From the NCBI GenBank assembly GCA_031416075.1, contig JANOSY010000049.1, positions 1 to 13,979 of the forward strand: a DNA stretch of 13,979 nucleotides, written 5' to 3'. Below are positions 90 through 13,844 of this stretch, one piece after another. Numbering within the stretch: the first letter of the stretch is position 1; each line of letters starts with the position of its first letter. A program made the position numbers and the translations under genes. The notes under the pieces are model-generated. The model was not told where the DNA came from, ran no database searches, and worked only from the letters and a program-made list of their open reading frames with translations. The DNA comes from Candidatus Tenderia sp. (GTDB lineage: Bacteria > Pseudomonadota > Gammaproteobacteria > Tenderiales > Tenderiaceae).

Positions 90-153
90 TGGTGTTTCCT
101 CTCCATGTGAATAATAATCCTATCGAGGTGTTCGTTTTTATTAAACCACTACA
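1..153 (-). mobile_element. IS3-family insertion sequence, left end (partial; continues past the window start)
   Basis: The minus strand from 153 reads TGTAGTGGTTTAATAAAAACGAACACC, an IS3-like 5'-TG terminus. It is followed by an RBS (GGAGAGG) and an OrfA start at 89. The IS110 coding sequence begins abruptly at 154. Confidence 0.85.
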
Positions 154-545
154 GTCTACGACATCCGCGTCCAGCGGCTCTCCCGTCAGGATGAGCAAGT
201 GGTGCGACTGATGGAGATGCCGGGGTTGGGTCCACTGAACTCCACCGCCTTCATCGCTGCAATAGGCGATCCACGCCACTTCCCCTCTGGGCGCTGCTTC
301 TCGGTGAGCATCGGGCTTACACCCCATGAGCACTCCAGCGGCGACAAGCAGCAGTTGTTCGGGATCTCCAAACGGGGCGACCGCTACCTGCACACCTTAT
401 TGATTCACGGTGCACGCAGTGCGTTGCGTTGCGTTGTGCGGAGGGTAAGGATGACCGCCTGCTCCAATGGGCTATCAAACTCAAAGAAGCCAAAGGCTTC
501 AATGTCGCCGCAGTATTTGGCGATATAAAAAATACCGCATCGTTA
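154..545 (+). pseudogene. IS110-family transposase, C-terminal fragment (interrupted, frameshifted)
   Basis: The frame from 154 reads VYDIRVQRLSRQDEQVVRLMEMPGLGPLNSTAFIAAIGD...IGLTPHEHSSG...ISKRGDRYLHTLLIHGARS, matching Transposase_20 motifs. A frameshift at (GCGTT)3, 421-435, leads into RCAEGKDDRLLQWAIKLKEAKGFNVAAV. The 3' end is degenerate and its coordinate is approximate. Confidence 0.85.
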
Positions 546-577
546 GCAGTGCATCATACCCTACTCGTCACGTCTAA

Positions 578-1478
578 GAGCCTATCCGAAATCTTTTTCC
601 CCTCTCCTCAAAAGTAGTACGAGGAAAGCAAGGTTGACAAGCTGGAGGCTGGTGTTGAGTTGCCGTTCGCAGTTTTTCCAGAGCCTCCGGCATTTTTCAA
701 GCCAGGCAAAAGAGCGCTCAACCACACACCGCTGTGGTATTACGGCACCAAAAGTAGGCGCCTCTAGGCGAAGGTGTGCAGCTCATTACGTTTGGCAATT
801 TCTACCGAGGCACCCAGTATTTCAGTCACGCCCTCTGCAAAGGGTTGGCCGGTATAACCGCCATCGGCAAGGACATTCGTCACGGCCGATAATGAGCTTT
901 TGTACGCTGTAAAAGCTTCCAATGCCCCTTTTCTATCGGTCACATCGGCGGTGGTGACGGCTATGGCATGAGGCAATCCTTGGGTATCAACGGCGATGTG
1001 ACGTTTAATGCTCGATACCTTTTTGCCTGCGTCATAGCCTTTCTGTTCTGTTCTGTTCTGTTGTGTCGGTGTTTTTCACGCTCTGGGCATCAACGATCAG
1101 GAATGTCGTGCGTTCGTTGCGCCCATGGCTGAGTCGGGCCTCTCCAACCACATTTTTTTAAAGCCTGCTCCAGCAGGCTTGGCTCGTCTCCCGATGGCTT
1201 TTCTTTCCATAGCTTGAAGTAGTGATACACCGTGCTTTTCGCGGGAAACTCACCAGGCAACATGTCCCATTGACAGCCACTTTTGAGCAAATACAAAATC
1301 GCACAAAATACTTCGTATAAATCTACTTGCCGTGGCTTTGTCTTCTTTCTGGCACTTTACAATAGCGGCAAAATCCGTGCAAACTGCTCCCGACTTACAT
1401 CGCTTATGTAGCTCTTCTTTCTCATCCTCATAGCTTGAAATAACTTGCATCAATTTTCAAAAGATTTCGAATAGGCTC
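578..1478 (-). mobile_element. IS5-family insertion sequence (IS1031-like ends), 901 bp, complete ends but inactive
   Basis: Terminal inverted repeats GAGCCTATCCGAAATCTTTT (578-597) and GAGCCTATTCGAAATCTTTT (reverse complement of 1459-1478) match at 19/20. A TAA target duplication lies at 575-577 and 1479-1481. Confidence 0.92.
582..1425 (-). pseudogene. IS5-family transposase pseudogene
   Basis: Reconstructed as MRKKSYISDVSREQF..LL*SARKKTKPR..GCQWDMLP..ALKK / ..LIVDAQSVKNTDT.. / KGYDAGKKVSSIKRHIAVDTQGLP..ELHTFA / VIPQRCVVERSFAWLEKCRRLWKNCER..*. Lesions are a TAA stop at 1357-1359, a (TTCTG)4 expansion at 1041-1060 and a 23-bp insertion near 744-769. An A7 slippage site lies at 1153-1159. 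Confidence 0.9.
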
Positions 1479-1583
1479 TAAGATCAAAAGTGCCAATATC
1501 GACTTTTCTGCCTCGTCCAACTCTTTAATCATTATGGCCTCGGGTTGTTGTTCTTTTGTTTATTAATATCACGTCGCTATATT

Positions 1584-1615
1584 CCGCGCGGACACAAAAA
1601 GCATGCCCACTCCAC
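1584..1615 (-). repeat. Degenerate REP-like palindromic element downstream of def
   Basis: The minus strand reads GTGGAGTGGGCATGCTTTTTGTGTCCGCGCGG: an imperfect hairpin (GTGGGCAT/GTGTCCGC with G-U pairs) preceded by a GTAG-like tetranucleotide (GTGG). Single copy in this window; could also act as a terminator. Confidence 0.4.
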
Positions 1616-1669
1616 ATAGCTGCATCAGGTCATCTAGCAGCTATTGGCGTAGAGTGCAACGTGGACACC

Positions 1670-2179
1670 TTACCCCTGCTGCTGATAAACCTTGCGCCGG
1701 AACAGGTCGTTACGGCGGCTGACAAGCCGGTCTAAAAAGAGCAAGCCATCAAGATGATCAAGCTCATGCTGAATCGCCCGCGCCTCGAAACCGCTGGTTT
1801 TGAGACTCTGTTTTTCGCCCTGGGCATCCCGGTACTCCAGGGTAATGGTCTCGGCGCGCATCACATTGCCGGTAAAGTCGGGTACCGACATGCACCCCTC
1901 GCGCCCTTTGGCGTAGCCGTTGTATTCAACAATTTCGGGGTTGATCAGCACCAGATAGCCGTGGTGTTCGAGCTTCGGTTTGCTCGACACATCCACCAGG
2001 GCGATGCGCTGAAAGCGCCCCACCTGCGGCGCAGCGATGCCGACACCACCGGGACCACTACGCATGGTCTCCTCAAGATCGACCAGGAACTGGTGCAACT
2101 CGGCATCAAACAGCGTGACGGGTTCGCTGAGCTGCTTCAGCCGCTCATCGGGATAGGTAAGGATCTCCAACTTCGCCAT
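1670..2179 (-). CDS. def: Peptide deformylase
   Basis: All three PDF motifs are present: GVGIAAPQVG, EGCMS and HELDHLDG; 169 aa. Confidence 0.96.
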   Translation of the reverse strand: MAKLEILTYPDERLKQLSEPVTLFDAELHQFLVDLEETMRSGPGGVGIAAPQVGRFQRIALVDVSSKPKLEHHGYLVLINPEIVEYNGYAKGREGCMSVPDFTGNVMRAETITLEYRDAQGEKQSLKTSGFEARAIQHELDHLDGLLFLDRLVSRRNDLFRRKVYQQQG

Positions 2180-2184
2180 TACTT

Positions 2185-2706
2185 TTACCCAATCATCGTT
2201 TCAATAGGGGTGAGTTTGGCGTCGATCCCCTCTTTGATTACTATCTGCAAGGCCGACTCCAGCGCCGCAATCCCCTCGCCCGCCACACCGTCGATATGCA
2301 TGATGTAGATCGGCTTCGCCTCAGTGCCACCGACATCCGAATCGAGATTGACGATATTGAAGCCCGCCTCGGCCAGCGCGCCAGTCACATGGGCGACGAT
2401 GCCGGGACGATCAGCGCCATAGACGGTGATCTGCACATCCGGTTCCACATGGTGATGCAGATCACCATCCATCTTGTCGATGTGAATGTGCAGCCCCATA
2501 GAGTCAGCCACGGTAGAAAGCAGCCCTTGCAGTGATTTGACGGTGCCGTCGTGGCGCACCATCATCATGATGGTGAAGCTGTCACCCATGCGGATCATGG
2601 AGGCTTCGCCCAGATTGCAACCACCGTCGTAAAGGGCTTGGGTAACGTGGGCGACAATGCCGGGACGGTCTTTACCAACCAGGGATAGGATGTACCAGTG
2701 AGACAT
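2185..2706 (-). CDS. Tandem ACT-domain protein (GcvR-like / amino-acid-binding)
   Basis: Two ACT repeats, GKDRPGIVAHVT and GADRPGIVAHVT. Start set at ATG 2706 because AGGAG lies 5 nt upstream. Confidence 0.88.
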   Translation of the reverse strand: MSHWYILSLVGKDRPGIVAHVTQALYDGGCNLGEASMIRMGDSFTIMMMVRHDGTVKSLQGLLSTVADSMGLHIHIDKMDGDLHHHVEPDVQITVYGADRPGIVAHVTGALAEAGFNIVNLDSDVGGTEAKPIYIMHIDGVAGEGIAALESALQIVIKEGIDAKLTPIETMIG

Positions 2707-2726
2707 AACCACTCCTCAAATATTAA

Positions 2727-3479
2727 TCAATTTTTTGCAATCCAGATCAACGACGCCATCCGGCCTGTCACCTCGTCACGCCGGTATGAGTAGAACCGTT
2801 CCGCGTCACTGTAGGTACAATCGCCGCCACCATAGACCGCAACCACCCCCAGCGCCGCCAGCCGCTGCCGCGCCAGCTGATAGATATCTGCCAGCCAATA
2901 GCCGTCGGCCACTGGTTTAAATGCCAGATGGGCATCCGCATGGTGGGCAATAAAGGCGTCGCGCACCTCATCCCCCACCTCAAAAGCAGCGGGGCCGATG
3001 GCCGGGCCAAGCCAGACCAGCAGCTCGGCGGCGGCCACCCCCATGCTCAATACAGTCGCCTCGATCACCCCATCCAGCAGGCCGCGCCAACCGGCATGGG
3101 TTGCCGCCACTACGCTGCCCTGACGATCACACAACAGCAGTGGCAGACAGTCTGCTGTCATCACCGCACACACGGTATTGGGTAACCGGGTAAAACTGGC
3201 GTCGGCAACAGGATGCGCAGCCGTTGACGCCGCATCCACTACTACGGTGCCATGCACCTGCTGCAGCCAGAGTGGCTCACCGGGCAGCTGTTGCTGTTGA
3301 GACAGGCGGCGGCGATTCTCAGCCACCGCCTCTGGCAGATCACCCACATAGCCCGCCAGATTAAGGCTGGCATAGGGCAGCTGGCTAACACCCCCTTGCC
3401 GGGTAGTGACCCCGGCACGCACGGCGGCGGGGGCTGGCCAGTCGGGTACCATCCACCCTACAACGGTTTGATCACTCAT
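2727..3479 (-). CDS. pgeF: Peptidoglycan editing factor PgeF (YfiH; purine nucleoside phosphorylase/laccase-like family)
   Basis: Motifs WLQQVHG, TADCLP, HAGWRG, LGPAIGP and FYSYRR..TGRM; usual position after rluD. ATG 3479 has a GGAG RBS and overlaps the rluD 3' end. Confidence 0.95.
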   Translation of the reverse strand: MSDQTVVGWMVPDWPAPAAVRAGVTTRQGGVSQLPYASLNLAGYVGDLPEAVAENRRRLSQQQQLPGEPLWLQQVHGTVVVDAASTAAHPVADASFTRLPNTVCAVMTADCLPLLLCDRQGSVVAATHAGWRGLLDGVIEATVLSMGVAAAELLVWLGPAIGPAAFEVGDEVRDAFIAHHADAHLAFKPVADGYWLADIYQLARQRLAALGVVAVYGGGDCTYSDAERFYSYRRDEVTGRMASLIWIAKN

Positions 3480-4431
3480 TATCGGCTCCATCCTTCTGCA
3501 ACAGGGCGGCCAGCTGCTGCATATCCTCAGGCAGTGCCGCCTCCCACTCCATCATCTCACCACTGCTGGGGTGTTCCAGCCCCAGGCGGGCGGCATGCAG
3601 CGCCTGACGTTTAAAGTTACACAGCGTATCCGCCAGCGCATCGCTGCAGTCGGGCGGCAACCGCAACCGCTGGCCATACACCTGATCACCCACCAGCGGG
3701 TAGCGGATGTGGGCCATGTGCACACGTATCTGATGGGTACGGCCCGTCTCCAGATCGACCCGGATATGGGTATGAAGGCGAAACCGCTGCATCACCCGGT
3801 AGTGGGTCACCGCATGTTTGCCACTCTCCACCACCGCCATCCGTTTGCGGTCCACCGGGTGGCGTGCAATCGGGGCATCAACTGTCCCCCCTGCAGTCAT
3901 CACCCCACAGGCAACCGCCTGATACTGCCGCTTCATTACCCGTGCCTGCAGAAGATCCACCAGATGTTTCTGTGATTTAAGATTACGTGCCACCGCCAGC
4001 AGGCCACTGGTCTCTTTATCCAGCCTATGTACAATACCCGCACGTGGTACCTCGTTGAGTTCCGGGGCGTGATGCAACAGGGCGTTGACCAGGGTGCCGT
4101 CATAGTTACCCGCCGCCGGATGCACTACCATGCCGGCAGGTTTGTTGACAATGATGATATGCTCATCCTCATAAACGATGGAGAGTGGGATATCCTCCCC
4201 CTGCCAGCTCACCTCCTCTTCAGAGGTCGCCTCCAGTTCAATCTGCTCGCCCCCCTCCATTTTATCTTTGGCGCGCCGTTGTTTACCATTGACCAATACT
4301 TGGCCGGCCTTGATCCACTGCTGCAGACGGGCGCGTGAATAGTCCGGGAACAGTTGGGCCAGGACCTGGTCCAACCGCTGCCCTGAATAATCGGCAGGGA
4401 CTGTAATTGTTAAATATTCTGAAGATGGCAT
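3472..4431 (-). CDS. rluD: 23S rRNA pseudouridine(1911/1915/1917) synthase RluD
   Basis: S4 domain (RLDQVLAQLFPDYSRARLQQWIK), VNKPAGMVVHP, catalytic HRLDKETSG, GRTHQIRVH and RQALHA. The start at ATG 4431 is preferred but uncertain. Confidence 0.96.
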   Translation of the reverse strand: MPSSEYLTITVPADYSGQRLDQVLAQLFPDYSRARLQQWIKAGQVLVNGKQRRAKDKMEGGEQIELEATSEEEVSWQGEDIPLSIVYEDEHIIIVNKPAGMVVHPAAGNYDGTLVNALLHHAPELNEVPRAGIVHRLDKETSGLLAVARNLKSQKHLVDLLQARVMKRQYQAVACGVMTAGGTVDAPIARHPVDRKRMAVVESGKHAVTHYRVMQRFRLHTHIRVDLETGRTHQIRVHMAHIRYPLVGDQVYGQRLRLPPDCSDALADTLCNFKRQALHAARLGLEHPSSGEMMEWEAALPEDMQQLAALLQKDGADNE

Positions 4432-4479
4432 TGGTTTCTTTACAAAACAGGGCAATATGTCGCACGAAAAGGGGTAACC

Positions 4480-4529
4480 ATGCTAACAGATTTCAATCCG
4501 CCACCCCCTCACAAATATAGTGGCATACT
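4480..4529. promoter_or_regulatory. Putative divergent extended -10 promoters (rluD operon / BamD-family operon)
   Basis: TGtTAGCAT on the minus strand (4488-4480) and TGgCATACT on the plus strand (4521-4529). No clear -35 boxes. Confidence 0.3.
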
Positions 4530-4567
4530 AGCGTGATGCTGATTCACCATTGATGGTTATGTTAAAT

Positions 4568-5848
4568 ATGCAGATACGCAGACAGCTACTCGCCTTACTC
4601 CTTGCAGCAGGCTTAAGTTTGACCAGCCATGCCGCCGATGAAGGGATTTTGGCCGAGTACAGCTATTACGAAACGGGCAAGATTGAGCTCAATGCCGGAA
4701 ACTATCAGCAGGCGATCACCCATTTTACCAACCTGCAGAAGCGTTACCCCGACAGCCCCTACATCCCTCAGGCGCTTTTAGAGTGTGCCTACGCCCACTA
4801 CAAACTGGGACAGGCGGATGATGCCATTGGGCTACTCCAGGGATTTTTAACTGCCGAGAACAAACATCCACATAAGCCCTACGCCTTTTACCTTGCCGGT
4901 CTGGCCAAGTATCAGGAGGCCCTTGGGCGCATAGAGAACGCCAAGACCAACGAAGATGAAAACAGCGCCCGTGCCAGCACCCAGCAGGCTATCGACTACT
5001 TTGGCCAGCTGGTGGATAAATTTCCTGGCAGCCAATACAGCGATGATAGCCGCAAAAAAACCACCTACCTGCTGGAAAAACTGGTCACTCATCGCATCAA
5101 GCTGGAGGAGCTGAACGCCAGCCGCAGCCGTTTAAAACAGATTCAGGTTGAAAGCGATCAGGCCATTGTCTGGCTGCTCAAACAGCCCGCCGACCAGTAC
5201 ACCCTACAGCTGGTACGCAGCCCCGACTACGACACCGTCTTTATGATCTCACTCCAGTACAAACTGGAAAAAGAGGCCATCATCATCGAAACCGTGGGAG
5301 AAGAGGGCAAATTTTTCACCCTCTTTTATGGTGTCTATCCCAGCAAGGGCGAGGCACTCCTGGCAGGCAGCAATCTGCCCGGTGCCATTCTTGAGGCCCA
5401 GCCACTGGTACGTGAGCTGGCCTCCGTGCAGACAGAGATTACGGGGGATGTATCCCGCAAGACCGCAGACAACCCATCAGAAGAGTCCGTCACTGAATCA
5501 GTCCGCACCACAGCGTCAACACCTACAAGCAACATCCAGATCCCCACTGAACTCTGGTTAATGTCCCAAAACCCCATGGCCTACACCGTTCAGTTAATGG
5601 GTTCAGGCAGCGAGCGCGCCGTACATGCCTTCATTAACGAACACAATCTCGCAGACCAGACCACCTACTATCGCAGCATGCGCAAAGATGGCAGCAGCTG
5701 GTACTCATTGCTGTACGGTAGTTATATCGATAAATCGGCAGCCATCGAATCGGCACAACAGATGGGCATCGCCCTTGGCATTGAGCAGCCCTGGATCAGG
5801 CGCTTTCAGGGTGTCCAGAACGAAATCGAAAGCAGCAACAAACCGTGA
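4568..5848 (+). CDS. BamD/YfiO-like TPR protein fused to two DamX-type SPOR domains; signal peptidase I-type signal peptide
   Basis: Signal MQIRRQLLALLLAAGLSLTSHA|A has no Cys. BamD-type TPRs (YP.SPY..QA.LE.AYA.YK; YA.YL.GLA; F..LV..FP.SQY..D) are followed by two SPORs (WLLKQPADQYTLQL at about 5171-5440; WLMSQNPMAYTVQL..WYSLLYGSY..PWIRRF at about 5555-5830), separated by an S/T/E-rich linker. The start could be slightly upstream (4553/4559). Confidence 0.85.
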   Translation: MQIRRQLLALLLAAGLSLTSHAADEGILAEYSYYETGKIELNAGNYQQAITHFTNLQKRYPDSPYIPQALLECAYAHYKLGQADDAIGLLQGFLTAENKHPHKPYAFYLAGLAKYQEALGRIENAKTNEDENSARASTQQAIDYFGQLVDKFPGSQYSDDSRKKTTYLLEKLVTHRIKLEELNASRSRLKQIQVESDQAIVWLLKQPADQYTLQLVRSPDYDTVFMISLQYKLEKEAIIIETVGEEGKFFTLFYGVYPSKGEALLAGSNLPGAILEAQPLVRELASVQTEITGDVSRKTADNPSEESVTESVRTTASTPTSNIQIPTELWLMSQNPMAYTVQLMGSGSERAVHAFINEHNLADQTTYYRSMRKDGSSWYSLLYGSYIDKSAAIESAQQMGIALGIEQPWIRRFQGVQNEIESSNKP

Positions 5849-6813
5849 ATAGCCACCTGTATAGATTGGCCTCACTCTTTCTCAGTGCCGTTCTGCTCAG
5901 CGGATGTATTACCGTTCCCTTCACACCATTGCCAGAGCCATGGTCGGCAGAACATTATTACGATGCGGCCCGTCAGGCACAGGCCAGCGGCGACTACAGT
6001 GATGCATTAAAACAGCTGGCCGATCTTAAACAGCGCCACCCAGAGAACCCATACGCCAGGCTGGTGGCCATTGAGAGCAGCTATGCCCACTACCAGAGCG
6101 GAAACTATCTGGCGGCCATCCACTCAGCAGATCAACATATCGCCGAGCAACCCGATACCAGTAGCCTTGACTACGCCTGGTACCTGAAGGGGATCGCCCA
6201 CCTCAAACTCACCCACCAGAACGGCCACTTTGATGCCAACAACAGCCGTGCTGCCTACCAGAGCTTTGCAACGCTGGCACAAACGTTTCCGGCAAGCCAA
6301 TACCGGAACGAAGCGCTGCAACAGCTCCAGCCACTCCGTCTCCAGCTGGCTGACCACGAACTCGAGACCATTCATGCCCTGTTGCAACAGGGCAACCAGT
6401 CAGGGGCCCGCGAACGTGCCGCCTATCTAGCCAAAAACTATCCCGATACCGCTGCCGCCAACGCTGCTCTGATCATTCTGCATAGTGACAACCATAACAA
6501 GACAGTCAGTCAGCAGCACACAACGTGGCTGCTACAACAGGCACCTGACCACTACACCCTCCAGATGGCTGGCACCAGCGACCAAGAACGGCTTGAGACA
6601 CTGATCGCCCGTGCGCCTGAACAGCTCATCTGGTTTCAGCGCCCGGCACAGCGGCGGCTCTGGTATACCCTGCTCTACGGCCATTACGGCAGTGCTGCCG
6701 AAGCAGAGGCGGCCATACCCGCACTCAAAGCGCTCTTTGCCATTGATGAAGCGTGGGTGCAACCATTTGCAGCCTTGCAAAAAAACCTTCTTAATGCTGA
6801 TGATGGCCACTGA
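5845..6813 (+). CDS. BamD-like lipoprotein fused to a C-terminal DamX-type SPOR domain
   Basis: GTG start overlaps the upstream stop (GTGA). Lipobox LLSG|C; WSAEHYY, SLDYAWYLKG, FPASQY, LADHE and NYPDT; SPOR WLLQQAPDHYTLQM..WYTLLYGHY..AWVQPF at about 6526-6795. Confidence 0.87.
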   Translation: MNSHLYRLASLFLSAVLLSGCITVPFTPLPEPWSAEHYYDAARQAQASGDYSDALKQLADLKQRHPENPYARLVAIESSYAHYQSGNYLAAIHSADQHIAEQPDTSSLDYAWYLKGIAHLKLTHQNGHFDANNSRAAYQSFATLAQTFPASQYRNEALQQLQPLRLQLADHELETIHALLQQGNQSGARERAAYLAKNYPDTAAANAALIILHSDNHNKTVSQQHTTWLLQQAPDHYTLQMAGTSDQERLETLIARAPEQLIWFQRPAQRRLWYTLLYGHYGSAAEAEAAIPALKALFAIDEAWVQPFAALQKNLLNADDGH

Positions 6814-6890
6814 TGCTGCGACAACCCCAACCCAGCTATGCTAGGCTACGGCACCTTTAACCTACACCATTCACAACACCGAAACAGACA

Positions 6891-7646
6891 ATGTCACTGA
6901 TAAAATCACTTACACCGCTGCTGCTCATCACCCTTTTGTTAGGTGGTTGCGCCACTGCCGATCTCGACTCCACCAAATGGGCCGCTGAGCGCTTTTACAA
7001 CGAAGCCAAACACGCCCTTGACAACAACGACTACGAAATCGCCATCAAACGCTACGAGGATCTGGAGATCCACCACCCCTTCAGCCCCTATACCCAGCAG
7101 GCACAGCTTGAGATCGGCTACGCCTATTACAAATACGATGAGCCGGACTCCGCCATCGCCGCTGCCGACCGCTACATCAAACTCTACCCCCGCGCTGACA
7201 ACGTTGACTACGCCTACTACCTGCGGGGTCTGGCCAGTTTTGAACGGGGCCTCAGCACACTCGATCTGGCCCTCGGGCTGGATATCACCAAACGTGAACC
7301 CAAGGCCGCCAAAAATGCCTTTATCTACTTTGAAGAGCTGATTAAACGTTATCCTGACAGCCGCTATGGTGATGACGCCAAGCGGCGGATGGTTGACCTG
7401 CGCAACCGCCTGGCAGCCTATGAACTGCACGTCGCCCACTACTATATGCGCCGTGGTGCCCACCTCTCCGCCGTCAACCGTTGCAAAAACATACTGGAAA
7501 ACTACCCACAAACCCCCTCCGTCCCCGATGCACTCGTGACGATGGCAGAGGCCTACCAGCAGCTAGGCATTCACGATCTGGCTAACGATACACTCCAGGT
7601 AATACAACTCAACTACCCTGACAAAATCAGTGCAATGCAACCCTAA
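6891..7646 (+). CDS. bamD: Outer membrane protein assembly factor BamD (ComL/YfiO)
   Basis: Lipobox LLGG|C and a full five-TPR pattern including PFSPYTQQAQL, VDYAYYLRGL, YPDSRY and RLAAYELHVAHYYMRRGAHLSAVNR; 251 aa; located at the rluD-divergent locus. Confidence 0.95.
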   Translation: MSLIKSLTPLLLITLLLGGCATADLDSTKWAAERFYNEAKHALDNNDYEIAIKRYEDLEIHHPFSPYTQQAQLEIGYAYYKYDEPDSAIAAADRYIKLYPRADNVDYAYYLRGLASFERGLSTLDLALGLDITKREPKAAKNAFIYFEELIKRYPDSRYGDDAKRRMVDLRNRLAAYELHVAHYYMRRGAHLSAVNRCKNILENYPQTPSVPDALVTMAEAYQQLGIHDLANDTLQVIQLNYPDKISAMQP

Positions 7647-7657
7647 GGAGAACCGTT

Positions 7658-8182
7658 ATGTGGGACTTTTTTGAAACCGTACGCCACCGCCACTCCGTGC
7701 GTTGTTACCAGAGTGATATGCCGGTAGAAAAAGAGAAGTTGCACGCCATCCTGGAGACGGCCTGTAGCGCCCCCTCCGCTGGCGACCTGCAAGCGTATAA
7801 AATCATCGTTGTCAGCAATCAGGAGAAACGTCAGGCACTTGCCGATGCCGCTGAAGGACAGGCATTTATCTCCGCAGCACCCATCGCACTCATCTTCTGT
7901 GCCGAACCACAACGTTCAGCCACACAATACGGTGAACGGGGCCAGACTCTCTACGCCATCCAGGACACCACCATTGCAGCCGCCTACGCCCAGCTCGCCG
8001 TTGTGGCTGCGGGTATGGGTTCCACCTGGGTCGGTTATTTTGATGAGGAGAAGGTCCGCGACATTCTCCAGATTGAAAGCACACTGACACCCATCGCCAT
8101 GCTCAGCCTCGGCTACCCGGCTGAACTGCCAGAGCCAACCACACGTCGCCGACTCGATGAGATTGTCAGCCAAGTTGAATAA
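7658..8182 (+). CDS. Nitroreductase family protein
   Basis: RHSVRCY, APSAGDLQ, QDTTIAA, GMGSTWVGYF and LSLGYP; AAGGAG RBS overlaps the bamD stop. Confidence 0.93.
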   Translation: MWDFFETVRHRHSVRCYQSDMPVEKEKLHAILETACSAPSAGDLQAYKIIVVSNQEKRQALADAAEGQAFISAAPIALIFCAEPQRSATQYGERGQTLYAIQDTTIAAAYAQLAVVAAGMGSTWVGYFDEEKVRDILQIESTLTPIAMLSLGYPAELPEPTTRRRLDEIVSQVE

Positions 8183-8188
8183 AATAAA

Positions 8189-8229
8189 AACGGCCATCCC
8201 TGAACAAATAGCGATGGCCGTTCTCTTTT
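8189..8229 (+). terminator. Rho-independent terminator (possibly bidirectional)
   Basis: Perfect 10-bp stem AACGGCCATC (8189-8198) / GATGGCCGTT (8213-8222), followed by CTCTTTT and preceded by an A-tract, right after the nitroreductase stop. Confidence 0.8.
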
Positions 8230-8486
8230 CAAACCACTCAATCTACAGTATCAGAGACACCTATAACTCATGCGTACTCCGCGCCTGCTAAGAGCTACTT
8301 AATGCATCCAGCGCATACACCCAAAGTATAATTAAACTAATTAATCAGATCATCACTGCCATCATTCACAGCATACAAATAGCTATCTTTGGTATAAAAA
8401 TCGCAAACCAACCGTAAAATCAAACAATTACATCCATTGCCATCCCCCCAGCTCTTATATCTATACTATATGCTTAATTTCATTAA

Positions 8487-8505
8487 TTTCTGTCTTGACT
8501 GAAAT
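8487..8505. promoter_or_regulatory. Palindromic operator copy 1 (putative GbsR/MarR site)
   Basis: TTTCTGTCTTGACTGAAAT is a near-palindrome, 18/19 identical to 9080-9098, and overlaps the -35 box. Confidence 0.75.
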
Positions 8506-8523
8506 AACAGAATATTCTATATT
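8495..8523 (+). promoter_or_regulatory. Sigma70 promoter of the regulator gene (probably leaderless)
   Basis: TTGACT (8495-8500), 17-bp spacer, TATATT (8518-8523). The ATG begins 7 nt after the -10 box and there is no Shine-Dalgarno sequence. Confidence 0.7.
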
Positions 8524-8529
8524 GACCAC

Positions 8530-9063
8530 ATGAAACTGAATCCAGTCGCACAACGCTTCATCCTGCATTGGGGTGAAATGGGCTCCAAGTGGGGAGTCAA
8601 CCGAACGGTGTCCCAAATCCACGCCCTGCTCTATCTGTTTGGCAAACCCATGCCAGCCGATGAGATCACCGAGACGTTGGAGGTCGCACGCTCCAATGTG
8701 AGCACGAGCCTCAAGGAACTCCAGAACTGGAACCTGATTCATGTGGTGCACGTGATGGGAGACCGCCGCGATCACTTCGCCACCTCAGTCGACGTGTGGG
8801 AACTCTTCCGCACAGTGGTGCGCGAGCGCAAAGAGCGCGAATTCGACCCCACCATTGGCGTTCTAAAGGATTGCCTGACCAATGATGATCTAAGCAAGGA
8901 AGACGCCGCAGCGCAACAGCGCATCAAGGAAACCCTGGCATTGATGGAAGCTTTGTCTACCTGGGGCGAACAAATGCTGCGCCTGGAACCCACCACGCTG
9001 ATGAACGTGATGAAACTGGGAGCCAAGATCCAAGGATTACTCGCCCCCAAAAAGGAGGGTTGA
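8530..9063 (+). CDS. GbsR/MarR family transcriptional regulator
   Basis: FILHWGEMGSKWGVNRTVSQIHALLY, wHTH ADEITETLEVARSNVSTSLKELQNW, GDRRDHF. Confidence 0.92.
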   Translation: MKLNPVAQRFILHWGEMGSKWGVNRTVSQIHALLYLFGKPMPADEITETLEVARSNVSTSLKELQNWNLIHVVHVMGDRRDHFATSVDVWELFRTVVRERKEREFDPTIGVLKDCLTNDDLSKEDAAAQQRIKETLALMEALSTWGEQMLRLEPTTLMNVMKLGAKIQGLLAPKKEG

Positions 9064-9079
9064 TTTTTTTGCCCATTTG

Positions 9080-9107
9080 TTTCTGTTTTGACTGAAATGT
9101 CTGAAAT
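9080..9107. promoter_or_regulatory. Palindromic operator copy 2 plus an extra half-site
   Basis: TTTCTGTTTTGACTGAAAT followed by GTCTGAAAT, immediately before the AAGGAG RBS of the next gene. Confidence 0.75.
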
Positions 9108-9120
9108 AAGGAGAAGTTAA

Positions 9121-9588
9121 ATGACCACCGCCTACCCTTTGACCATCTACTTCGATGCTTCATGCGCGCTATGCAATAGCGAGATGCAAACCATCAAACT
9201 GCACGACAGCGAAAATGTCCTGACTCTAATCGATTGCTCTGGGCCTGATTTCGACGATGGTCCTTTCCAACCTGAGGGCATAACCCGTGATGCCATGATG
9301 AATTGCCTGCACGCCCAAGATGCATCTGGCCAATGGCTGAAGGGTGTCGCCGCATTTGAGGTGATTTACCGCACAGTGGGAATGACTTCAATCGCGAAAT
9401 TCTGGGGTCATCCACTAACCCGCCCCATAACCGAACGCGTCTATCCGTGGGTAGTCCGACACCGCCATATTTTGTCTTCTCTGGGACTACACCAAGTATT
9501 CGCCCTCTGGAGCCGACGCGCCGCACAAGCAGCCAACCGACGCAGCCAAAGCTGTAAAGACGGCCGCTGCACGATTCCCCATCCATAA
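9121..9588 (+). CDS. DCC1-like thiol-disulfide oxidoreductase (DUF393)
   Basis: N-terminal IYFDASCALC (DxxCxxC), G..AF, and Y.WV.RHR; strong RBS. Confidence 0.88.
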   Translation: MTTAYPLTIYFDASCALCNSEMQTIKLHDSENVLTLIDCSGPDFDDGPFQPEGITRDAMMNCLHAQDASGQWLKGVAAFEVIYRTVGMTSIAKFWGHPLTRPITERVYPWVVRHRHILSSLGLHQVFALWSRRAAQAANRRSQSCKDGRCTIPHP

Positions 9589-9629
9589 ACCCAACTCTCG
9601 GCAATCGACTTTCATTTAGAGGAAGACAC

Positions 9630-11063
9630 ATGGACATCATGAACTGGGTTCTAAGCCTGTTAATTGCGCAGGGAATACTGGGTGCCATTGATACGATTTA
9701 CCATCACGAACTCACGGTCGCCTTGCCGCGCCGTCCCGGTGCCAAGCTGGAACTGTCGATTCACGCAGTTCGCGCTCTGTTATATGGCGTTGTATTCGCA
9801 TCGATCGCCAACGTTGAGTTTCATGGCGGATGGGTAACCGCAATCGTCATATTGGTTGCGATTGAAGCCGGACTGACCTTGTGGGACTTTGTCGTCGAAG
9901 ACAACAGCAGAAAACTCCCCGCAACGGAACGCATGCTGCATACGGTTCTGGCTATCAATGGCGGCGCTCTATTCGGCCTTTTTGCCTGGCAATTGGCTCA
10001 TTGGTGGGGACTTCAAACCGCACTGGTAACGGTCGACTATGGTTGGCAAGGCATTACCCTGACTATCTTCGCGATAGGCGTGGCTGCGTCAGGGATTCGT
10101 GATGGCTTGGCTGCATTAAATCTCGGGAAAACCATCGCCGCGCCAAATCCTTTCCTGGGCCAAGCGCATCAGCGATATCTGGTAACCGGGGGCACGGGAT
10201 TCATTGGCGAAACCTTGGTCAACCAATTGCTGGACGCCGGGCACGAAGTGACAGTTTGGGCGCGCGATCCTTTGCGCGCAGCATATTTGTTCGATGGCCG
10301 GGCACGCATCATCCGTGATGTAGCCCTGCTTGACTCATCTGAACACTTCGACACCGTCATCAATCTGGCTGGAGCGCCGGTAGTCGGGCCACGATGGAGT
10401 GCTCGACGCAAGGCACAGTTATTGTCCAGCCGATTGGAGACCACGCAATCATTGCTGAGCTGGTTTACCCAAGCCAAGTTTAAACCTGCGACCTGGATAC
10501 AAACATCAGCGATTGGTTACTACGGCGTTCGAAAATCCAGTGAAACACTGAATGAAAACAGCGCAAAAGGCACAGGCTTCATGGCTGATCTCTGCACGCG
10601 CTGGGAAGACACCGCCCAGGCTGCAGATCAACTTGGGGCACGACGCGTCACCCTCCGGTTTGGTCTGGTATTTGGGCCAGGCGGCGCACTGCCTGCATTG
10701 TTACTCCCATATCGCTTGGGATTCGGGGGCCGCCTGGGTGATGGCCAGCAAGTGATGAGCTGGATTCATCGTGACGACCTGCTCACACTCATAGCCCAGG
10801 CAGTTCAAGATGATCGCATGCAAGGTACCTATAACGCGGTTGCACCAGAAGCGATCACCCAAACCCAATTCGCTAAAACGGCGGGCCAAGTCTTGGTGCG
10901 TCCTGTCTGGCTACATGTTCCGGCGGCGTTAATCCGTGGGATGGCTGGCGAAATGGCCCAGCTGTTTGTTGATGGTCAACGTGTGATCCCTCAACGCCTG
11001 CTGAAGCAGGGTTTCCAGTTCCGTCACCCAACGCTATTAAGCGCACTCCGTGATTTAAGATAA
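9630..11063 (+). CDS. TIGR01777 family NAD(P)-dependent oxidoreductase/epimerase (YfcH-like) with N-terminal membrane domain
   Basis: About 165 aa of hydrophobic helices, then LVTGGTGFIG, VINLAGA, SAIGYYG, SWIHRDD, YNAVAP and the DUF1731-like GQRVIPQRL...GFQF. Confidence 0.9.
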   Translation: MDIMNWVLSLLIAQGILGAIDTIYHHELTVALPRRPGAKLELSIHAVRALLYGVVFASIANVEFHGGWVTAIVILVAIEAGLTLWDFVVEDNSRKLPATERMLHTVLAINGGALFGLFAWQLAHWWGLQTALVTVDYGWQGITLTIFAIGVAASGIRDGLAALNLGKTIAAPNPFLGQAHQRYLVTGGTGFIGETLVNQLLDAGHEVTVWARDPLRAAYLFDGRARIIRDVALLDSSEHFDTVINLAGAPVVGPRWSARRKAQLLSSRLETTQSLLSWFTQAKFKPATWIQTSAIGYYGVRKSSETLNENSAKGTGFMADLCTRWEDTAQAADQLGARRVTLRFGLVFGPGGALPALLLPYRLGFGGRLGDGQQVMSWIHRDDLLTLIAQAVQDDRMQGTYNAVAPEAITQTQFAKTAGQVLVRPVWLHVPAALIRGMAGEMAQLFVDGQRVIPQRLLKQGFQFRHPTLLSALRDLR

Positions 11064-11072
11064 GGCCGAGCC

Positions 11073-11630
11073 ATGAGCAAACTTTACCCACACCTATTAG
11101 GCGATGCGTTTCATCAGTTAGCGCCCATGCTCCAGAGATTTCACACGGAGATGGAACTGCCGTGGCATGGCAAAGTACAAGTCATCTGGAACCCGCGCCC
11201 TGCGCTCCGTCAATTTCTCAAACTTGGAGGTCTTCCTAGAGAAACTGCCTCACAACCCATCACCGTCTGTGTGACCGAGGCAAACAATAGTGAAATCTGG
11301 AAACGGCAGTTTGGAAAACAAGTCATGGCGTCCAGGCAAAAAATCAGCAAGGACTCGATACAGGAAGGTTTTGGGCCAGTGGCTCTCATACTCGATACGT
11401 TTGTAGACAAAGGTGCACTCATACAAACCTGTCTACGTAGTCGGCTCTTGGGTATACCGCTACCTCGCCCGTTAGAGTTCCGGGTTACTGCGCGCGAATG
11501 GGAGCAGGATGAGTGCTTCCACTTCGATGTGGGAATCGCCTGGGCGAATGTTTCGCTCATTCGCTATGTCGGTTGGCTTCGCCCCCAACCCCTATCGACA
11601 TCATGGGCACGCTCGAACAACGCTGTTTAA
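11073..11630 (+). CDS. DUF4166 domain-containing protein
   Basis: LY..LLG.AF..L.P.LQRFH, EIWKRQFG, LLGIPLP, FHFDV and LIRYVGWL pattern; typical neighbour of this regulator cluster. Confidence 0.75.
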   Translation: MSKLYPHLLGDAFHQLAPMLQRFHTEMELPWHGKVQVIWNPRPALRQFLKLGGLPRETASQPITVCVTEANNSEIWKRQFGKQVMASRQKISKDSIQEGFGPVALILDTFVDKGALIQTCLRSRLLGIPLPRPLEFRVTAREWEQDECFHFDVGIAWANVSLIRYVGWLRPQPLSTSWARSNNAV

Positions 11631-12085: not shown

Positions 12086-13844
12086 ATGACCAAGCTTTAT
12101 TTACTGGCGGGCAATGGCAGCGCATCCGATTGGTGGGACGACGTCACGCCTCACTTTCAACATTACCAACCCATCCCAATTGAATTACCGGGTTTTGGCA
12201 GCAATACGAGCCCGCCGTGCGATCGCCTGGCTGCCTACGCCGAGTCATTGTTTGAGGCAACCGAAGCGGGCCATGCTATTTTGGCGCTGCACATATCGAA
12301 GCAGCAACCCAAGGCTTTGTCGCGCATAGCAAAAGCGGTCGACTTCGCCTAGCGGAAAAGGCTGGCTTACCTGTTCCTGCGATGTGCACGGTAAAGCACA
12401 GTACCGACCCACAACTCCCAGACTTACTATCAACCTCAGCCCCCGATGGTTGGGCCGTCCGCTCATCGAGCTATCAAGAAGATCAAGCTGACACCGCGAA
12501 TGCTGTCCTCAGTACCACCTACCTGCGCCAGCCCAGCGGCGATGTGCCGATGCGCGTTGAAACACTCCATGCAGCTGGTGTCGAGGAGATCGTGGTGCAA
12601 CGCTTCATCGTTCCCCGCGTATCAGGCATTGCCTTTACACGTCATCTGTCGGCCGAAATCGAATGGGTTAATGGCCACCTCGAGTCTCTGGCCGATGGTC
12701 GTGTCACGCCACACCGCACGATACTGTCACGGCTCGGCGCCGCCTGGGGCGACGACACATTTGAAACCATTCAAGGGTTAACCCGCGATGCACTCTGGGA
12801 GTTTCTACAAAGTGTGTTGTGTACATTTCATTATGTACACGGCGATATCGAGTGGGCTTGGGACGGCGAACAATTGTGGTTGCTGCAGTATCGACCCATC
12901 AGCCACTACCCCTGGCGCCGGCATCTGACCGCAGCCAACATAGCTGAAATTTTGCCCCCGCAACCCAGTCGGCTGGTTGAATACGCGCAGCGACGTGCAG
13001 CAGCATTCCCGCAGTCATGGCCAAATGGGATACCCGTGTCTTGCAAGACAACGAGCCCTTTACCGCGCTTTGTGGCGATGCGTCCTATATCAACAATGAT
13101 TTATTTCTGGCCCGGCTCGCCGACTGGGGCCTGCCGGCGAGCCGGTATTCAGACGAGATCGGCGGCGGCACGCCCACCTTGCCATGGAACCCCCTGAAGC
13201 TTCTGCGCTCACTTCCCTTGTTTTCACGCATGCAGCGCAATAGCCGACACCAACTAAAGTACCTGGAAAGTGACCTGCGCCGCTTCGACCAGGAATTACA
13301 TAAATTGGCTGCCGCCAACACAAATGGTCAACAACTTGCTGACTGGTTTGTCCGTTTTTATGTTTTCGTCGTGCAAGGCAACCTCATTATTTCCACTGCA
13401 CTTGCGAGTAGTGGCGGCGATGGGCTCGGCCGCCCACCTACCGTCTACGCCGATTTTTCTAACAAACCACACCGACTTCCTTGGGAAACCGACCCAGCCA
13501 CCTCTCGCCCAGCGCAATCTGCGCTTCCAATACAAGCTTTCCCAGTTTGGCCTGCCGGAGTAAAACTTGCCCATAAGCTCTCACTGCCTGGCATGCGGGG
13601 CTATCACTTGCAGGTCCGCGAGTGGTATCGAGACAATCTGATGCGGATATTTTTCCGCCTACATCACGCGTTTAGTGAACAGGATCGGCAACACTGGTTT
13701 TCACCTCACGCATCGCCGCGCGATCGGGGAAACAGCTTCTGGCAAGACGGACACGCAAGCCACGAACAGGCTACTGGCTTTATCATTTACCCCGGTAATG
13801 TTGAGGGTGTTCTCGGTCAAGACATCCTGCTGGTCGAAACACTA
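12086..13844 (+). pseudogene. Alpha/beta-hydrolase + PEP-utilizing (PPDK/PEP-synthase-like ATP-grasp) fusion, pseudogene
   Basis: Three reading frames join into one protein. Hydrolase start LYLLAGNG..ELPGFG; out-of-frame junction near 12280-12292 into SKSGRLRLAEKAGLPVP..WAVRSSSYQED..VVQRFI..SGIAFT..DIEWAWDG..LWLLQYRPI; frameshift near 13000; cut at ILLVETL by an IS before the phospho-His motif. Confidence 0.82.

What the first reader, a model, noticed from the sequence alone, without database searches (positions are those of the whole stretch)
4568..7646. Tandem triplet of BamD-family genes, two fused to SPOR peptidoglycan-binding domains: candidate septum-targeted BAM accessory system
Seen: three co-oriented BamD-like genes occupy the rluD-divergent position (BamD-2xSPOR, lipoprotein BamD-SPOR, canonical BamD). 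The first two are coupled by a GTGA overlap and all are intact. Established: bamD is normally one gene divergent from rluD, and SPOR domains (DamX, DedD, FtsN, RlpA) bind amidase-denuded glycan at the division septum. E. coli OMP insertion is biased to midcell and modulated by peptidoglycan. Inference: duplicated BamD TPR scaffolds acquired SPOR domains that tether BAM or its substrates to septal peptidoglycan, hard-wiring OMP assembly to division. I do not know of a characterised BamD-SPOR fusion, but I could not search.
Basis: partly seen in the sequence, partly recalled or inferred. Interest (0 to 1): 0.88.

Follow-up and report, generated by a model that had tools for sequence, protein, structure and literature searches.

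The report
BamD paralogs fused to SPOR domains
Next to the normal outer-membrane assembly gene bamD, this uncultured bacterium carries two extra BamD-like genes fused to cell-wall-binding SPOR domains; they belong to an uncharacterised paralog family also seen in several related bacterial families and may link outer-membrane protein assembly to the dividing cell wall.

Summary
Divergent from rluD lie three intact, co-oriented BamD-family genes. The first (4568-5848) has a signal peptide, the N-terminal BamD TPR half and two SPOR domains. The second (5845-6813) is a lipoprotein with a nearly full BamD TPR domain and one SPOR. The third (6891-7646) is canonical BamD. All three exceed the curated BamD HMM cut-off, the SPOR domains pass HMM, fold and key-residue checks, and the GTGA overlap is real.

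The genes are not recent local duplicates. SPOR-bearing proteins fall outside the canonical BamD group in both trees. A lipoprotein BamD-SPOR gene sits directly upstream of bamD in at least 7 of about 232 sampled gammaproteobacterial families. At least 46 clusters (50% identity) exist in public protein data, machine-named "BamD". I found no paper on them.

Function is inferred. Most likely these are TPR scaffolds fixed to denuded, septal peptidoglycan, co-expressed with BamD and acting with or beside BAM. Neither BamA binding nor septal targeting was shown: the complex prediction gave no verdict. I class this as a new variant of a known kind, of moderate to high interest.

The parts
3472..4455 (-). 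rluD (23S rRNA pseudouridine synthase), divergent from the BamD-family cluster
   Evidence: NF008385 459.8 bits against a cut-off of 351. Pfam PseudoU_synth_2 plus S4.
2727..3491 (-). pgeF/yfiH-type gene (Cu-oxidase_4) downstream of rluD. This is the usual neighbour and serves as context only.
   Evidence: PF02578 258.8 bits.
4568..5848 (+). Gene 1 ('S2 type'): exported BamD-N-half protein with two SPOR domains. It is 426 aa from the ATG; protein P0001 is numbered from the upstream TTG at 4550.
   Evidence: dN/dS 0.125 against the 96%-identical relative.
4568..4633 (+). Predicted Sec signal peptide of gene 1 (…TSHA|AD). There is no lipobox cysteine.
   Evidence: Read from the sequence. The Cys column is kept in only 14% of S2-type relatives. 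The cleavage site is my reading; no predictor was run.
4634..5182 (+). BamD-like TPR region of gene 1. It matches the N-terminal part of the BamD model only; the C-terminal repeats are missing.
   Evidence: YfiO profile 7-152 of 203. The PDB BamD match covers query 7-185. The model shows helices at 29-211. Foldseek's best hits are BamD chains, E 5e-7.
5183..5449 (+). SPOR domain 1 of gene 1, a divergent copy
   Evidence: DamX SPOR 2lfv E 3.8e-7. The DamX Q351 equivalent is present, but Leu stands at the W416 position. The model has a beta-alpha-beta-beta-alpha-beta fold at 217-289. No nonsynonymous change against G003.
5450..5551 (+). Low-confidence linker between the two SPOR domains
   Evidence: pLDDT below 50 at residues 307-331. 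This stretch varies in length among relatives (alignment A2).
5552..5845 (+). SPOR domain 2 of gene 1
   Evidence: PF05036 35.6 bits. DamX 2lfv E 9.5e-5 with both the Q351 and W416 equivalents present.
5845..5848 (+). GTGA start/stop overlap between gene 1 and gene 2, suggesting translational coupling
   Evidence: The same 4-nt overlap occurs in two same-genus genomes (L019, L020).
5845..6813 (+). Gene 2 ('S1 type'): lipoprotein with a BamD-like TPR domain and one SPOR, 322 aa (P0002)
   Evidence: Lipobox LLSG-C21. dN/dS 0.29.
5932..6507 (+). BamD-like TPR domain of gene 2 (residues about 30-221)
   Evidence: TIGR03302 149.8 bits. E. coli BamD 5d0o_D E 2.2e-19. AlphaFold mean pLDDT 90.8. Foldseek top hits are BamD chains with target-normalised TM-score 0.72-0.79. 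R191 aligns with E. coli BamD R197.
6508..6810 (+). SPOR domain of gene 2
   Evidence: PF05036 38.8 bits. DamX 2lfv E 1.9e-6 with the Q351 and W416 equivalents present. The model has a beta-alpha-beta-beta-alpha-beta fold at 237-307.
6891..7646 (+). Gene 3: canonical bamD, a lipoprotein (LLGG-C20) of 251 aa (P0003)
   Evidence: TIGR03302 273.5 bits. PDB BamD chains E 2.4e-67 (9pxg_D) and 1e-47 (E. coli). It groups with the canonical BamDs in both trees. dN/dS 0.11.

Best explanation
The cluster encodes the housekeeping BamD plus two members of an old, uncharacterised BamD-paralog family whose C-termini carry SPOR peptidoglycan-binding domains.

Gene 2 is an outer-membrane-type lipoprotein with 4-5 BamD-type TPRs followed directly by a SPOR domain. 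Gene 1 is an exported, non-lipidated protein with only the N-terminal BamD TPR half plus two SPOR domains. It is translationally coupled to gene 2.

Most likely mechanism, inferred rather than shown:
- The SPOR domains fix these TPR scaffolds to amidase-denuded glycan, that is, septal or newly split peptidoglycan.
- The conserved N-terminal BamD-like TPR surface binds a client or partner. In BamD that region handles OMP beta-signals.
- The proteins, expressed together with BamD, therefore act as wall-anchored accessory factors that concentrate or hand over BAM clients, or BAM itself, at division sites. They do not replace BamD.

Shown here: the domain make-up, family membership by HMM and fold, the age of the paralogy, conserved synteny with bamD, and purifying selection.

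Inferred: peptidoglycan binding, septal targeting, and any contact with BAM or OMP substrates.
For: Domains and family:
- BamD subfamily HMM scores are above the curated cut-off for all three genes, with SPOR hits above the Pfam cut-off.
- Both paralogs find BamD chains as their best PDB sequence and fold matches, and both find DamX SPOR.
- The models show the TPR helices and beta-alpha-beta-beta-alpha-beta SPOR folds.
- Equivalents of the DamX residues needed for septal localisation (Q351, W416; PMC6895207 passages) are present in 2 of the 3 SPOR domains.

Synteny:
- A BamD-SPOR gene lies directly upstream of bamD, on the same strand and divergent from rluD where rluD is in view. This holds in 14 of 17 genomes of the window's family. 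It also holds in 10 genomes of 6 further families out of 300 class-level genomes scored.
- The gap to bamD is 114 nt or less in 20 of 23 loci, measured from longest ORFs.
- In the window, no terminator-like site lies on the + strand between the genes.

Age and selection:
- No fusion groups with its own genome's BamD. The 22 canonical BamDs of 8 families form one group (SH-aLRT 92), and the 2xSPOR type is one clade (100) (the larger FastTree agrees).
- dN/dS against a 96-97%-identical relative is 0.125, 0.29 and 0.11 for genes 1, 2 and 3.

Conserved positions:
- Both paralog types keep nearly all positions conserved in canonical BamD in TPR1-3.
- The lipobox Cys is kept in 85% of single-SPOR paralogs, and the R197 equivalent in 63% of them, including R191 of gene 2.
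- The own BamA keeps the glutamate of the VRRExRQMEG motif (E371, invariant in 19 BamAs). I take it to be the E. coli E373 salt-bridge partner of BamD R197. The salt bridge itself is from PMC6529637 passages.

Precedent: peptidoglycan-binding modules associate with BAM elsewhere, namely Pal in Caulobacter and RmpM in Neisseria (PMC2797634 passages).
Against: - No experiment or expression data bear on function.
- The single-SPOR paralogs have lost several positions that are highly conserved in canonical BamD in the C-terminal TPR4-5 region. Y185 is kept in 13%, R188 in 15%, A190 in 2%, L215 in 30% and Y222 in 28%. The 2xSPOR type lacks that region altogether. From recall, this is the half of BamD that docks on BamA POTRA5, BamC and BamE, so stable incorporation into BAM is doubtful.
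- The paralogs evolve faster than BamD. Within the genus, TPR identity is 64% for gene 2 and 76% for gene 1, against 82% for BamD.
- Adjacency to bamD could partly be a relic of tandem duplication.
- Looser TPR+SPOR architectures without a clear BamD signature are common in other phyla, so a generic 'TPR scaffold on septal wall' role unrelated to BAM is plausible.
- SPOR domain 1 of gene 1 has Leu at the DamX W416 position.
- The conserved TPR positions are largely structural residues (A, Y, P, L, G), so they say little about ligand specificity.
Confidence: 0.42

Rival explanations
1. The gene-2-type lipoprotein is a true alternative BamD subunit. It docks on BamA POTRA5 at the BamD site, through an R191-E371 salt bridge, and forms a second, wall-tethered BAM population at the septum.
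For: - TIGR03302 149.8 bits, a lipobox, and 9 TPR helices superposing on E. coli BamD at 2-3 A rmsd.
- The R197 equivalent is kept in 63% of this type, and BamA E371 is invariant.
- Synteny with bamD is conserved.
- Pal and RmpM are precedents for wall-anchoring BAM modules.
Against: - Other BamD-conserved positions around the R197 helix and in TPR5 are lost (Y185, R188, A190, L215, Y222), and the last BamD helix and tail are replaced by SPOR.
- The canonical BamD is always retained beside it, so it does not substitute for BamD.
- A competitor for the single BamD site on an essential machine would need regulation, for which there is no evidence.
Confidence: 0.18
2. The paralogs have left BAM biology. 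They are septal-wall-anchored TPR scaffolds for cell-wall or constriction machinery, functionally like CpoB, NlpI, LpoA or other SPOR proteins. They remain next to bamD only because they arose there.
For: [quoted passage not shown]
- TPR+SPOR clusters with little or no YfiO signal are common in other phyla.
- The C-terminal BamD-specific positions are lost and the paralogs evolve faster.
- Extra unlinked BamD-like/SPOR paralogs of 413-561 aa lie elsewhere in related genomes.
Against: - The TPR parts score as BamD, not CpoB. YbgF model TIGR02795 gives 49.9 and 19.2 bits against a cut-off of 90.1. CpoB model NF008068 gives 25.7 bits for gene 1 and no hit for gene 2.
- Tight same-strand linkage to bamD is kept across 7 families despite deep divergence.
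- BamD-conserved TPR1-3 positions are kept.
Confidence: 0.3
3. The extra genes are decaying or functionless tandem duplicates, or an assembly artefact of a metagenome bin.
For: The genome is a 95-contig assembly, and the contig start carries IS fragments.
Against: - The ORFs are intact, with dN/dS of 0.125 and 0.29.
- The same arrangement occurs in a 96%-identical genome and a named MAG record (L018, L029), in other genera and in 6 other families.
- Near-identical DNA is held by runs of several studies.
Confidence: 0.02

Closest known systems
[quoted passage not shown]
   Same: - The TPR fold and family: TIGR03302 and PF13525 are above their cut-offs, and Foldseek's top hits are BamD chains.
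- A lipobox in gene 2.
- The position divergent from rluD.
- An R197 equivalent in gene 2.
   Different: - The C-terminal helix and tail are replaced by SPOR domain(s).
- Gene 1 has only the N-terminal half and no lipid anchor.
- Several BamD-conserved TPR4-5 positions are lost.
- The paralogs fall outside the canonical BamD group in both trees.
- A canonical BamD is encoded alongside.
SPOR-domain division proteins DamX, DedD, FtsN and RlpA
   Same: - The C-terminal SPOR domain, with the beta-alpha-beta-beta-alpha-beta fold and the DamX Q351/W416-type residues.
- RlpA is also an outer-membrane lipoprotein (recalled).
   Different: - The known SPOR proteins are inner-membrane bitopic proteins (FtsN, DamX, DedD) or a lytic transglycosylase (RlpA).
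- None of them carries a BamD-type TPR domain.
- Two tandem SPOR domains occur in gene 1.
Peptidoglycan-anchoring modules of BAM: Pal in Caulobacter crescentus, RmpM in Neisseria (PMC2797634)
   Same: The same idea: an outer-membrane-associated, wall-binding protein linked to the BAM machinery (passages).
   Different: - Those are separate OmpA-like-domain proteins that bind ordinary peptidoglycan and were found by co-purification.
- Here the wall-binding domain is SPOR, specific for denuded glycan in studied cases, and it is fused to a BamD paralog.
- Association with BAM is unproven here.
CpoB (YbgF) and other envelope TPR scaffolds (NlpI, LpoA)
   Same: Periplasmic TPR proteins that coordinate wall synthesis with outer-membrane constriction. 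There is weak TPR similarity to CpoB (6g5s_A E 0.0016).
   Different: CpoB/YbgF HMMs are far below their cut-offs. The genome has its own CpoB elsewhere (C14, 123.2 bits), and it roots outside the BamD family.

Membership tests
BamD / YfiO (TIGR03302, PF13525) | Score above the curated family cut-offs | tested here: met
   TIGR03302 gives 111.1, 149.8 and 273.5 bits against a cut-off of 81.4. PF13525 gives 99.5, 125.4 and 224.6 bits against 25. The enterobacterial equivalog NF008119 (cut-off 363) is met by none of the three, not even the canonical copy (205.6 bits).
BamD / YfiO | Full five-TPR domain, i.e. whole model length | tested here: not met
   - Gene 3: profile 5-199 of 203.
- Gene 2: profile 5-197 of 203, but only 9 helices before SPOR, and the tail is replaced.
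- Gene 1: profile 7-152 of 203 only.
The feature is met for gene 3, nearly met for gene 2 and not met for gene 1.
BamD / YfiO | N-terminal lipobox (outer-membrane lipoprotein) | tested here: met
   Gene 2 has LLSG-C21 and gene 3 has LLGG-C20. Gene 1 does not meet this feature: its signal ends ...TSHA|AD with no Cys. The Cys is kept in 85% of single-SPOR relatives and 14% of 2xSPOR relatives.
BamD / YfiO | Groups with canonical BamD orthologs in a tree | tested here: not met
   Gene 3 groups with the canonical BamDs. Genes 1 and 2 fall outside that group with the other SPOR-bearing proteins. Support for the canonical group is 96 (FastTree local) and 92 (SH-aLRT), so it is good but not decisive.
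BamD / YfiO | Arginine equivalent to E. coli R197, which forms the salt bridge to BamA E373 | tested here: met
   Gene 2 has R191 and gene 3 has R197. The column is aligned for gene 1 (R194) but lies in a region with no real homology, so that case is inconclusive. The role of the residue is from PMC6529637 and PMC10945584 passages.
BamD / YfiO | Binds BamA POTRA5 and is part of the BAM complex | tested here: inconclusive
   One complex prediction (BamA 266-428 with gene-2 residues 30-222) returned no verdict. A biochemical test is not possible with these tools.
SPOR domain (PF05036) | HMM score above the gathering cut-off | tested here: met
   38.8 bits (gene 2) and 35.6 bits (gene 1, second SPOR) against a cut-off of 21. 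The first SPOR of gene 1 is not reported by Pfam but matches DamX SPOR at E 3.8e-7.
SPOR domain | beta-alpha-beta-beta-alpha-beta (RNP-like) fold | tested here: met
   DSSP of the AlphaFold models shows it at gene-2 residues 237-307 and at gene-1 residues 217-289 and 345-418. Foldseek hits DamX SPOR 2lfv at E 5e-4 with target-normalised TM-score 0.68.
SPOR domain | Glycan-binding residues (DamX Q351 and W416 equivalents) | tested here: met
   Q and W are both present in the gene-2 SPOR and in the second SPOR of gene 1. The first SPOR of gene 1 has Q but Leu instead of W. The residue roles come from PMC6895207 passages.
SPOR domain | Binds denuded glycan and localises to the septum in an amidase-dependent way | not testable with these tools
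   This needs sacculus binding and localisation experiments.
CpoB / YbgF | Score above the family cut-offs | tested here: not met
   TIGR02795 gives 49.9 and 19.2 bits against a cut-off of 90.1. NF008068 gives 25.7 bits for gene 1 and nothing for gene 2, against a cut-off of 383. The genome's real CpoB is on another contig.

The most novel reading that the evidence does not exclude
BamD-SPOR lipoproteins are genuine auxiliary BAM subunits. Through their BamD-like TPR domain (R191 to BamA E371) they dock on BamA or on BamD-bound clients. Through SPOR they pin a sub-population of BAM to amidase-processed septal glycan. This would hard-wire outer-membrane protein insertion to the division site in these bacteria. 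The exported 2xSPOR half-BamD would act as a wall-bound receptor that captures OMP beta-signals and passes them on. If so, this is a protein-encoded version of the peptidoglycan control of BAM that E. coli achieves without such a subunit.
Probability: 0.2. Interest if true: 0.85.

Novelty: new variant of a known kind. Interest (0 to 1): 0.62.

Why it matters
How outer-membrane protein assembly is coupled in space to cell-wall growth and division is an open question. In E. coli, insertion is biased to midcell and BAM is inhibited by mature peptidoglycan (review passages), but no dedicated coupling protein is known there.

A conserved family in which a BamD-type scaffold is physically fused to a septal-wall-binding domain, and encoded in front of bamD, is a natural candidate for such a coupler. 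It gives directly testable constructs: SPOR localisation, BamA/BamD pull-downs and beta-signal binding.

It also matters for annotation. These genes are machine-named "BamD" in public data, which hides the fact that some genomes carry two or three distinct BamD-family proteins.

Tried and rejected
1. Complex prediction of own BamA POTRA4-5 (alignment A3, residues 266-428) with the gene-2 TPR domain (A1, residues 30-222) gave no verdict, score 0.00. I use it neither for nor against binding.

2. Expression. No RNA holder is listed for the stretch.

3. BamC replacement idea. BamC (PF06804) was not found in the own genome, which is 99.98% complete. It was found in 178 of 300 class-level genomes. 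Among the 12 fusion-bearing genomes I could read in that output, it was present in 4 (G047, G258, G128, G307). That is 2 of 7 families, so there is no clear link and I dropped the idea.

4. Phylum-level scan with the fusion profile at E<=1e-85 found 0 of 201 genomes. The window's own genome does not reach that threshold either, because its match is split in two. The scan therefore shows nothing. For the same reason, the class-level count is a floor.

5. Naming the lineage or carriers failed. The protein searches returned no organism names for the fusions. The genome-collection scan gave one record titled only 'MAG: Gammaproteobacteria bacterium'.

6. I had recalled BamP of the Flavobacterium BAM complex as a wall-binding subunit. 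The paper's text has no occurrence of 'peptidoglycan', so I dropped that comparison.

7. BamD substrate-site residues (R49, N60, Y62, D204; PMC10945584) do not discriminate. The window's own canonical BamD also differs at R49 and Y62 (my reading).

8. Promoter and terminator scans gave nothing above shuffled expectation. Rfam and tRNA scans of the window found nothing.

9. Supplementary files of papers were not consulted. They are closed and may hold BamD interface residue lists or architecture tables.

Full report
WHAT IS THERE

The window carries rluD-pgeF on the minus strand (3472-4455 and 2727-3491). Diverging from rluD are three + strand genes.

Gene 1 most likely starts at the ATG at 4568 and ends at 5848. 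Gene 2 runs from 5845 to 6813, and its GTG start overlaps the TGA stop of gene 1. Gene 3 runs from 6891 to 7646 after a 77-nt gap.

Pfam and NCBIfam place all three in the BamD family:
- PF13525: 99.5, 125.4 and 224.6 bits.
- TIGR03302: 111.1, 149.8 and 273.5 bits against a curated cut-off of 81.4.
- The CpoB/YbgF models stay far below their cut-offs.

Pfam SPOR is found at the C-terminus of gene 1 (35.6 bits) and of gene 2 (38.8 bits), against a cut-off of 21. A second, more divergent SPOR sits in the middle of gene 1. It is seen by the DamX model (two stretches), by a direct match to the DamX SPOR structure 2lfv (E 3.8e-7), and in the predicted structure. In the whole 3.49-Mb genome only these three loci pass the BamD cut-off.

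ANATOMY

Gene 3 is an ordinary BamD. It has a lipobox (LLGG-C20), matches the full length of the model, and hits solved BamD chains at E 2.4e-67 and 1e-47.

Gene 2 is a lipoprotein (LLSG-C21).
- Its AlphaFold model (mean pLDDT 90.8) has nine TPR helices (35-217) running straight into a beta-alpha-beta-beta-alpha-beta SPOR domain (237-307).
- Foldseek ranks E. coli BamD chains first, with target-normalised TM-score 0.72-0.79 and rmsd 2-3 A.

Gene 1 has a Sec-type signal (…TSHA|AD) and no lipobox cysteine.
- Only the N-terminal part of the BamD model is matched: profile 7-152 of 203, and BamD chain residues 1-180.
- Then come SPOR 1, a disordered linker and SPOR 2 (model pLDDT 81.4).
- Its best fold matches are again BamD chains, then DamX SPOR.

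On the SPOR residues: passages of Alcorlo et al. 2019 (PMC6895207) name DamX Q351 and W416 as needed for septal localisation. Pairwise alignments to DamX show both residues in the gene-2 SPOR and in SPOR 2 of gene 1. SPOR 1 of gene 1 has the Gln but a Leu at the Trp position.

IS IT A LOCAL ODDITY?

No.
- A word-indexed search found few close relatives, all carrying both Pfam domains. Two of them are named BamD or YfiO by JGI.
- An exhaustive phmmer scan of 1.84 billion cluster representatives gave 2199 hits at E<=1e-3.
- Of the 150 best, 46 carry both a BamD-like TPR part and at least one SPOR, by my phmmer domain mapping. Over all 179 proteins stored at that point, the figure is 64.

In genomes, the window's order contains one family of 17 genomes.
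- A single-SPOR BamD-like gene lies directly upstream of bamD in 14 of them.
- The extra 2xSPOR gene is present in the window's genus and three or four further genera. The largest genus has only the doublet.

Among 300 scored genomes sampled evenly across the class (about 232 families), 11 gave full-length single-frame matches to a profile of 38 fusions. These came from 7 families, including one genome from the window's family. Each has a canonical bamD next to the fusion on the same strand.

I fetched the loci of the ten genomes from the six other families. All ten show rluD, divergent, then a lipoprotein BamD-SPOR gene of 348-445 aa, then bamD. One of them has an additional SPOR-less BamD-like gene.

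This count is a floor. The window's own gene 2 was matched in two pieces, and 553 weaker rows were not listed.

The Atlas searches point to looser TPR+SPOR clusters in Planctomycetota, Gemmatimonadota and other phyla, with YfiO hits on 22-53% of members in some. I treat those as leads only.

HISTORY

I built two trees of the TPR parts, both rooted with the genome's own CpoB.

The first is a FastTree of 194 rows, a sample biased towards hits to gene 2.
- 73 of the 75 SPOR-bearing rows, together with nine rows without a detected SPOR, fall in one group of 82 (support 92).
- Some of those nine are short enough to be truncated.
- That group is apart from a canonical BamD group of 72 rows (support 96) that contains gene 3.

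The second is an IQ-TREE (quick search, mixture model) of 54 rows taken only from genomes.
- The 22 canonical BamDs of eight families form one group (SH-aLRT 92).
- No fusion groups with the BamD of its own genome.
- The 2xSPOR type is one clade (100) nested among single-SPOR fusions.
- The fusions are not resolved as a single clade with this root, and several have long branches.

I therefore claim only that the duplication predates the divergence of these families. I do not claim a single fusion event.

All three window genes are under purifying selection against a 96-97%-identical relative. dN/dS is 0.125, 0.29 and 0.11, based on small counts of 7-14 nonsynonymous differences.

WHAT THE CONSERVATION PATTERN SAYS

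I took positions conserved in at least 70% of 109 canonical BamD rows and asked what the paralogs keep.
- Both paralog types keep almost all such positions in TPR1-3.
- Single-SPOR paralogs keep the lipobox Cys in 85% and the arginine equivalent to E. coli R197 in 63%. Gene 2 has it as R191.
[quoted passage not shown] R197 also lies near an OMP-binding site (PMC10945584 passages).
- The own BamA keeps the corresponding glutamate, E371, which is invariant in 19 aligned BamAs.

Against this, single-SPOR paralogs have largely lost Y185, R188, A190, L215 and Y222. The 2xSPOR type lacks everything beyond about position 190.

So the part shared by all three proteins is the N-terminal TPR half, which in BamD handles substrate signals. 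The C-terminal half is the part that has diverged or been lost. From recall, that half docks BamD on BamA, BamC and BamE.

MECHANISM

The best-supported reading has three elements:
- The SPOR domains anchor these proteins to denuded glycan.
- The gene-2 product spans from the outer membrane (lipid anchor) to the wall. In other families a 40-100-residue linker separates the TPR and SPOR parts, which fits a tether.
- The gene-1 product is a soluble, wall-bound partner made in step with gene 2, through a start/stop overlap that is conserved within the genus.

Tight linkage to bamD across seven families argues for a role connected with BamD. Precedent exists: wall-binding modules associate with BAM in Caulobacter (Pal) and Neisseria (RmpM).

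Whether the TPR part contacts BamA, BamD, OMP clients or something unrelated is not shown. The one complex prediction gave no verdict and is not used as evidence.

My odds:
- 0.42: wall-anchored accessory acting with or beside BAM.
- 0.30: a BAM-independent septal scaffold.
- 0.18: a true alternative BamD subunit.
- About 0.02: artefact or decay.
- The remainder is unassigned.

COMPARISON AND NOVELTY

These proteins are BamD-family members by HMM and fold, but not BamD orthologs. They fall outside the canonical group in the trees, the domain is incomplete, and for gene 1 there is no lipid anchor. The C-terminal domains are SPOR domains by every test that can be run here.

No paper describing a BamD-SPOR fusion or a BamD paralog of this kind turned up in full-text searches. 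The terms were:
- BamD + 'SPOR domain'.
- BamD paralog, BamD-like, BamD homolog and BamD2.
- SPOR + YfiO.

The hits I opened did not mention one. Subscription-journal papers and supplements were not searchable. I therefore class this as a new variant of a known kind: an unstudied, moderately widespread paralog family.

The window's own contribution is the three-gene form with the 2xSPOR half-BamD. It is interesting chiefly because it offers a concrete handle on how BAM activity is coupled to septal peptidoglycan.

LIMITS
- Taxon names are hidden. The lineage is an uncultured gammaproteobacterium, and near-identical DNA is held by sediment metagenome runs of at least two studies.
- The distribution figures are floors.
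- The trees have modest support at the key node.
- All functional statements are inference.

Noticed in passing
window 1-1650: The contig start holds only transposase fragments and no intact gene. They are an IS110-family Transposase_20 piece (199-528 +), a DDE_Tnp_1 piece (764-976 -, below the Pfam cut-off) and a DUF4096 IS4/5 piece (1090-1296 -). GC here is lower, at 0.48-0.49.
   Followed up: partly
window 12382-13862: Two overlapping + strand ORFs in different frames (12382-13197 and 13017-13862). The first has only a short PPDK_N (PEP-utilising enzyme) hit. This may be a frameshifted or degraded gene, or a sequencing error.
   Followed up: no
own genome (G000), whole: BamA, BamB and BamE are present, but BamC (PF06804) was not found in a 99.98%-complete genome. 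BamC was found in 178 of 300 class-level genomes. There is no clear link with carrying the fusion.
   Followed up: partly
L047 (G010:C1:390029-391447), L048 (G008:C57:150-1835), L049 (G009:C148:729-1970): A further, unlinked type of larger BamD-like lipoprotein (413-561 aa) with weak SPOR-like C-terminal parts lies elsewhere in genomes of the same family. These form their own clade (SH-aLRT 97). The window's genome showed no such copy.
   Followed up: partly
L041 (G208:C2, locus 2044-6129): Another family has its own triplet: rluD, divergent, then a SPOR-less BamD-like lipoprotein (273 aa), then BamD-SPOR (426 aa), then bamD. The SPOR-less copy is sister to the fusion beside it (SH-aLRT 99), which suggests repeated local expansion of the paralog.
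   Followed up: partly
window 7658-11630: Downstream genes look unrelated to the cluster: a nitroreductase, a MarR-type regulator, a DCC1-like thiol-disulfide oxidoreductase, an epimerase/DUF1731 protein with an N-terminal membrane part, and DUF4166.
   Followed up: no
L045 (G005:C63, locus 3074-5299): One genus of the family has the 2xSPOR gene directly before bamD with no single-SPOR gene between them. The two paralogs can therefore occur independently. That genome is 88% complete.
   Followed up: no
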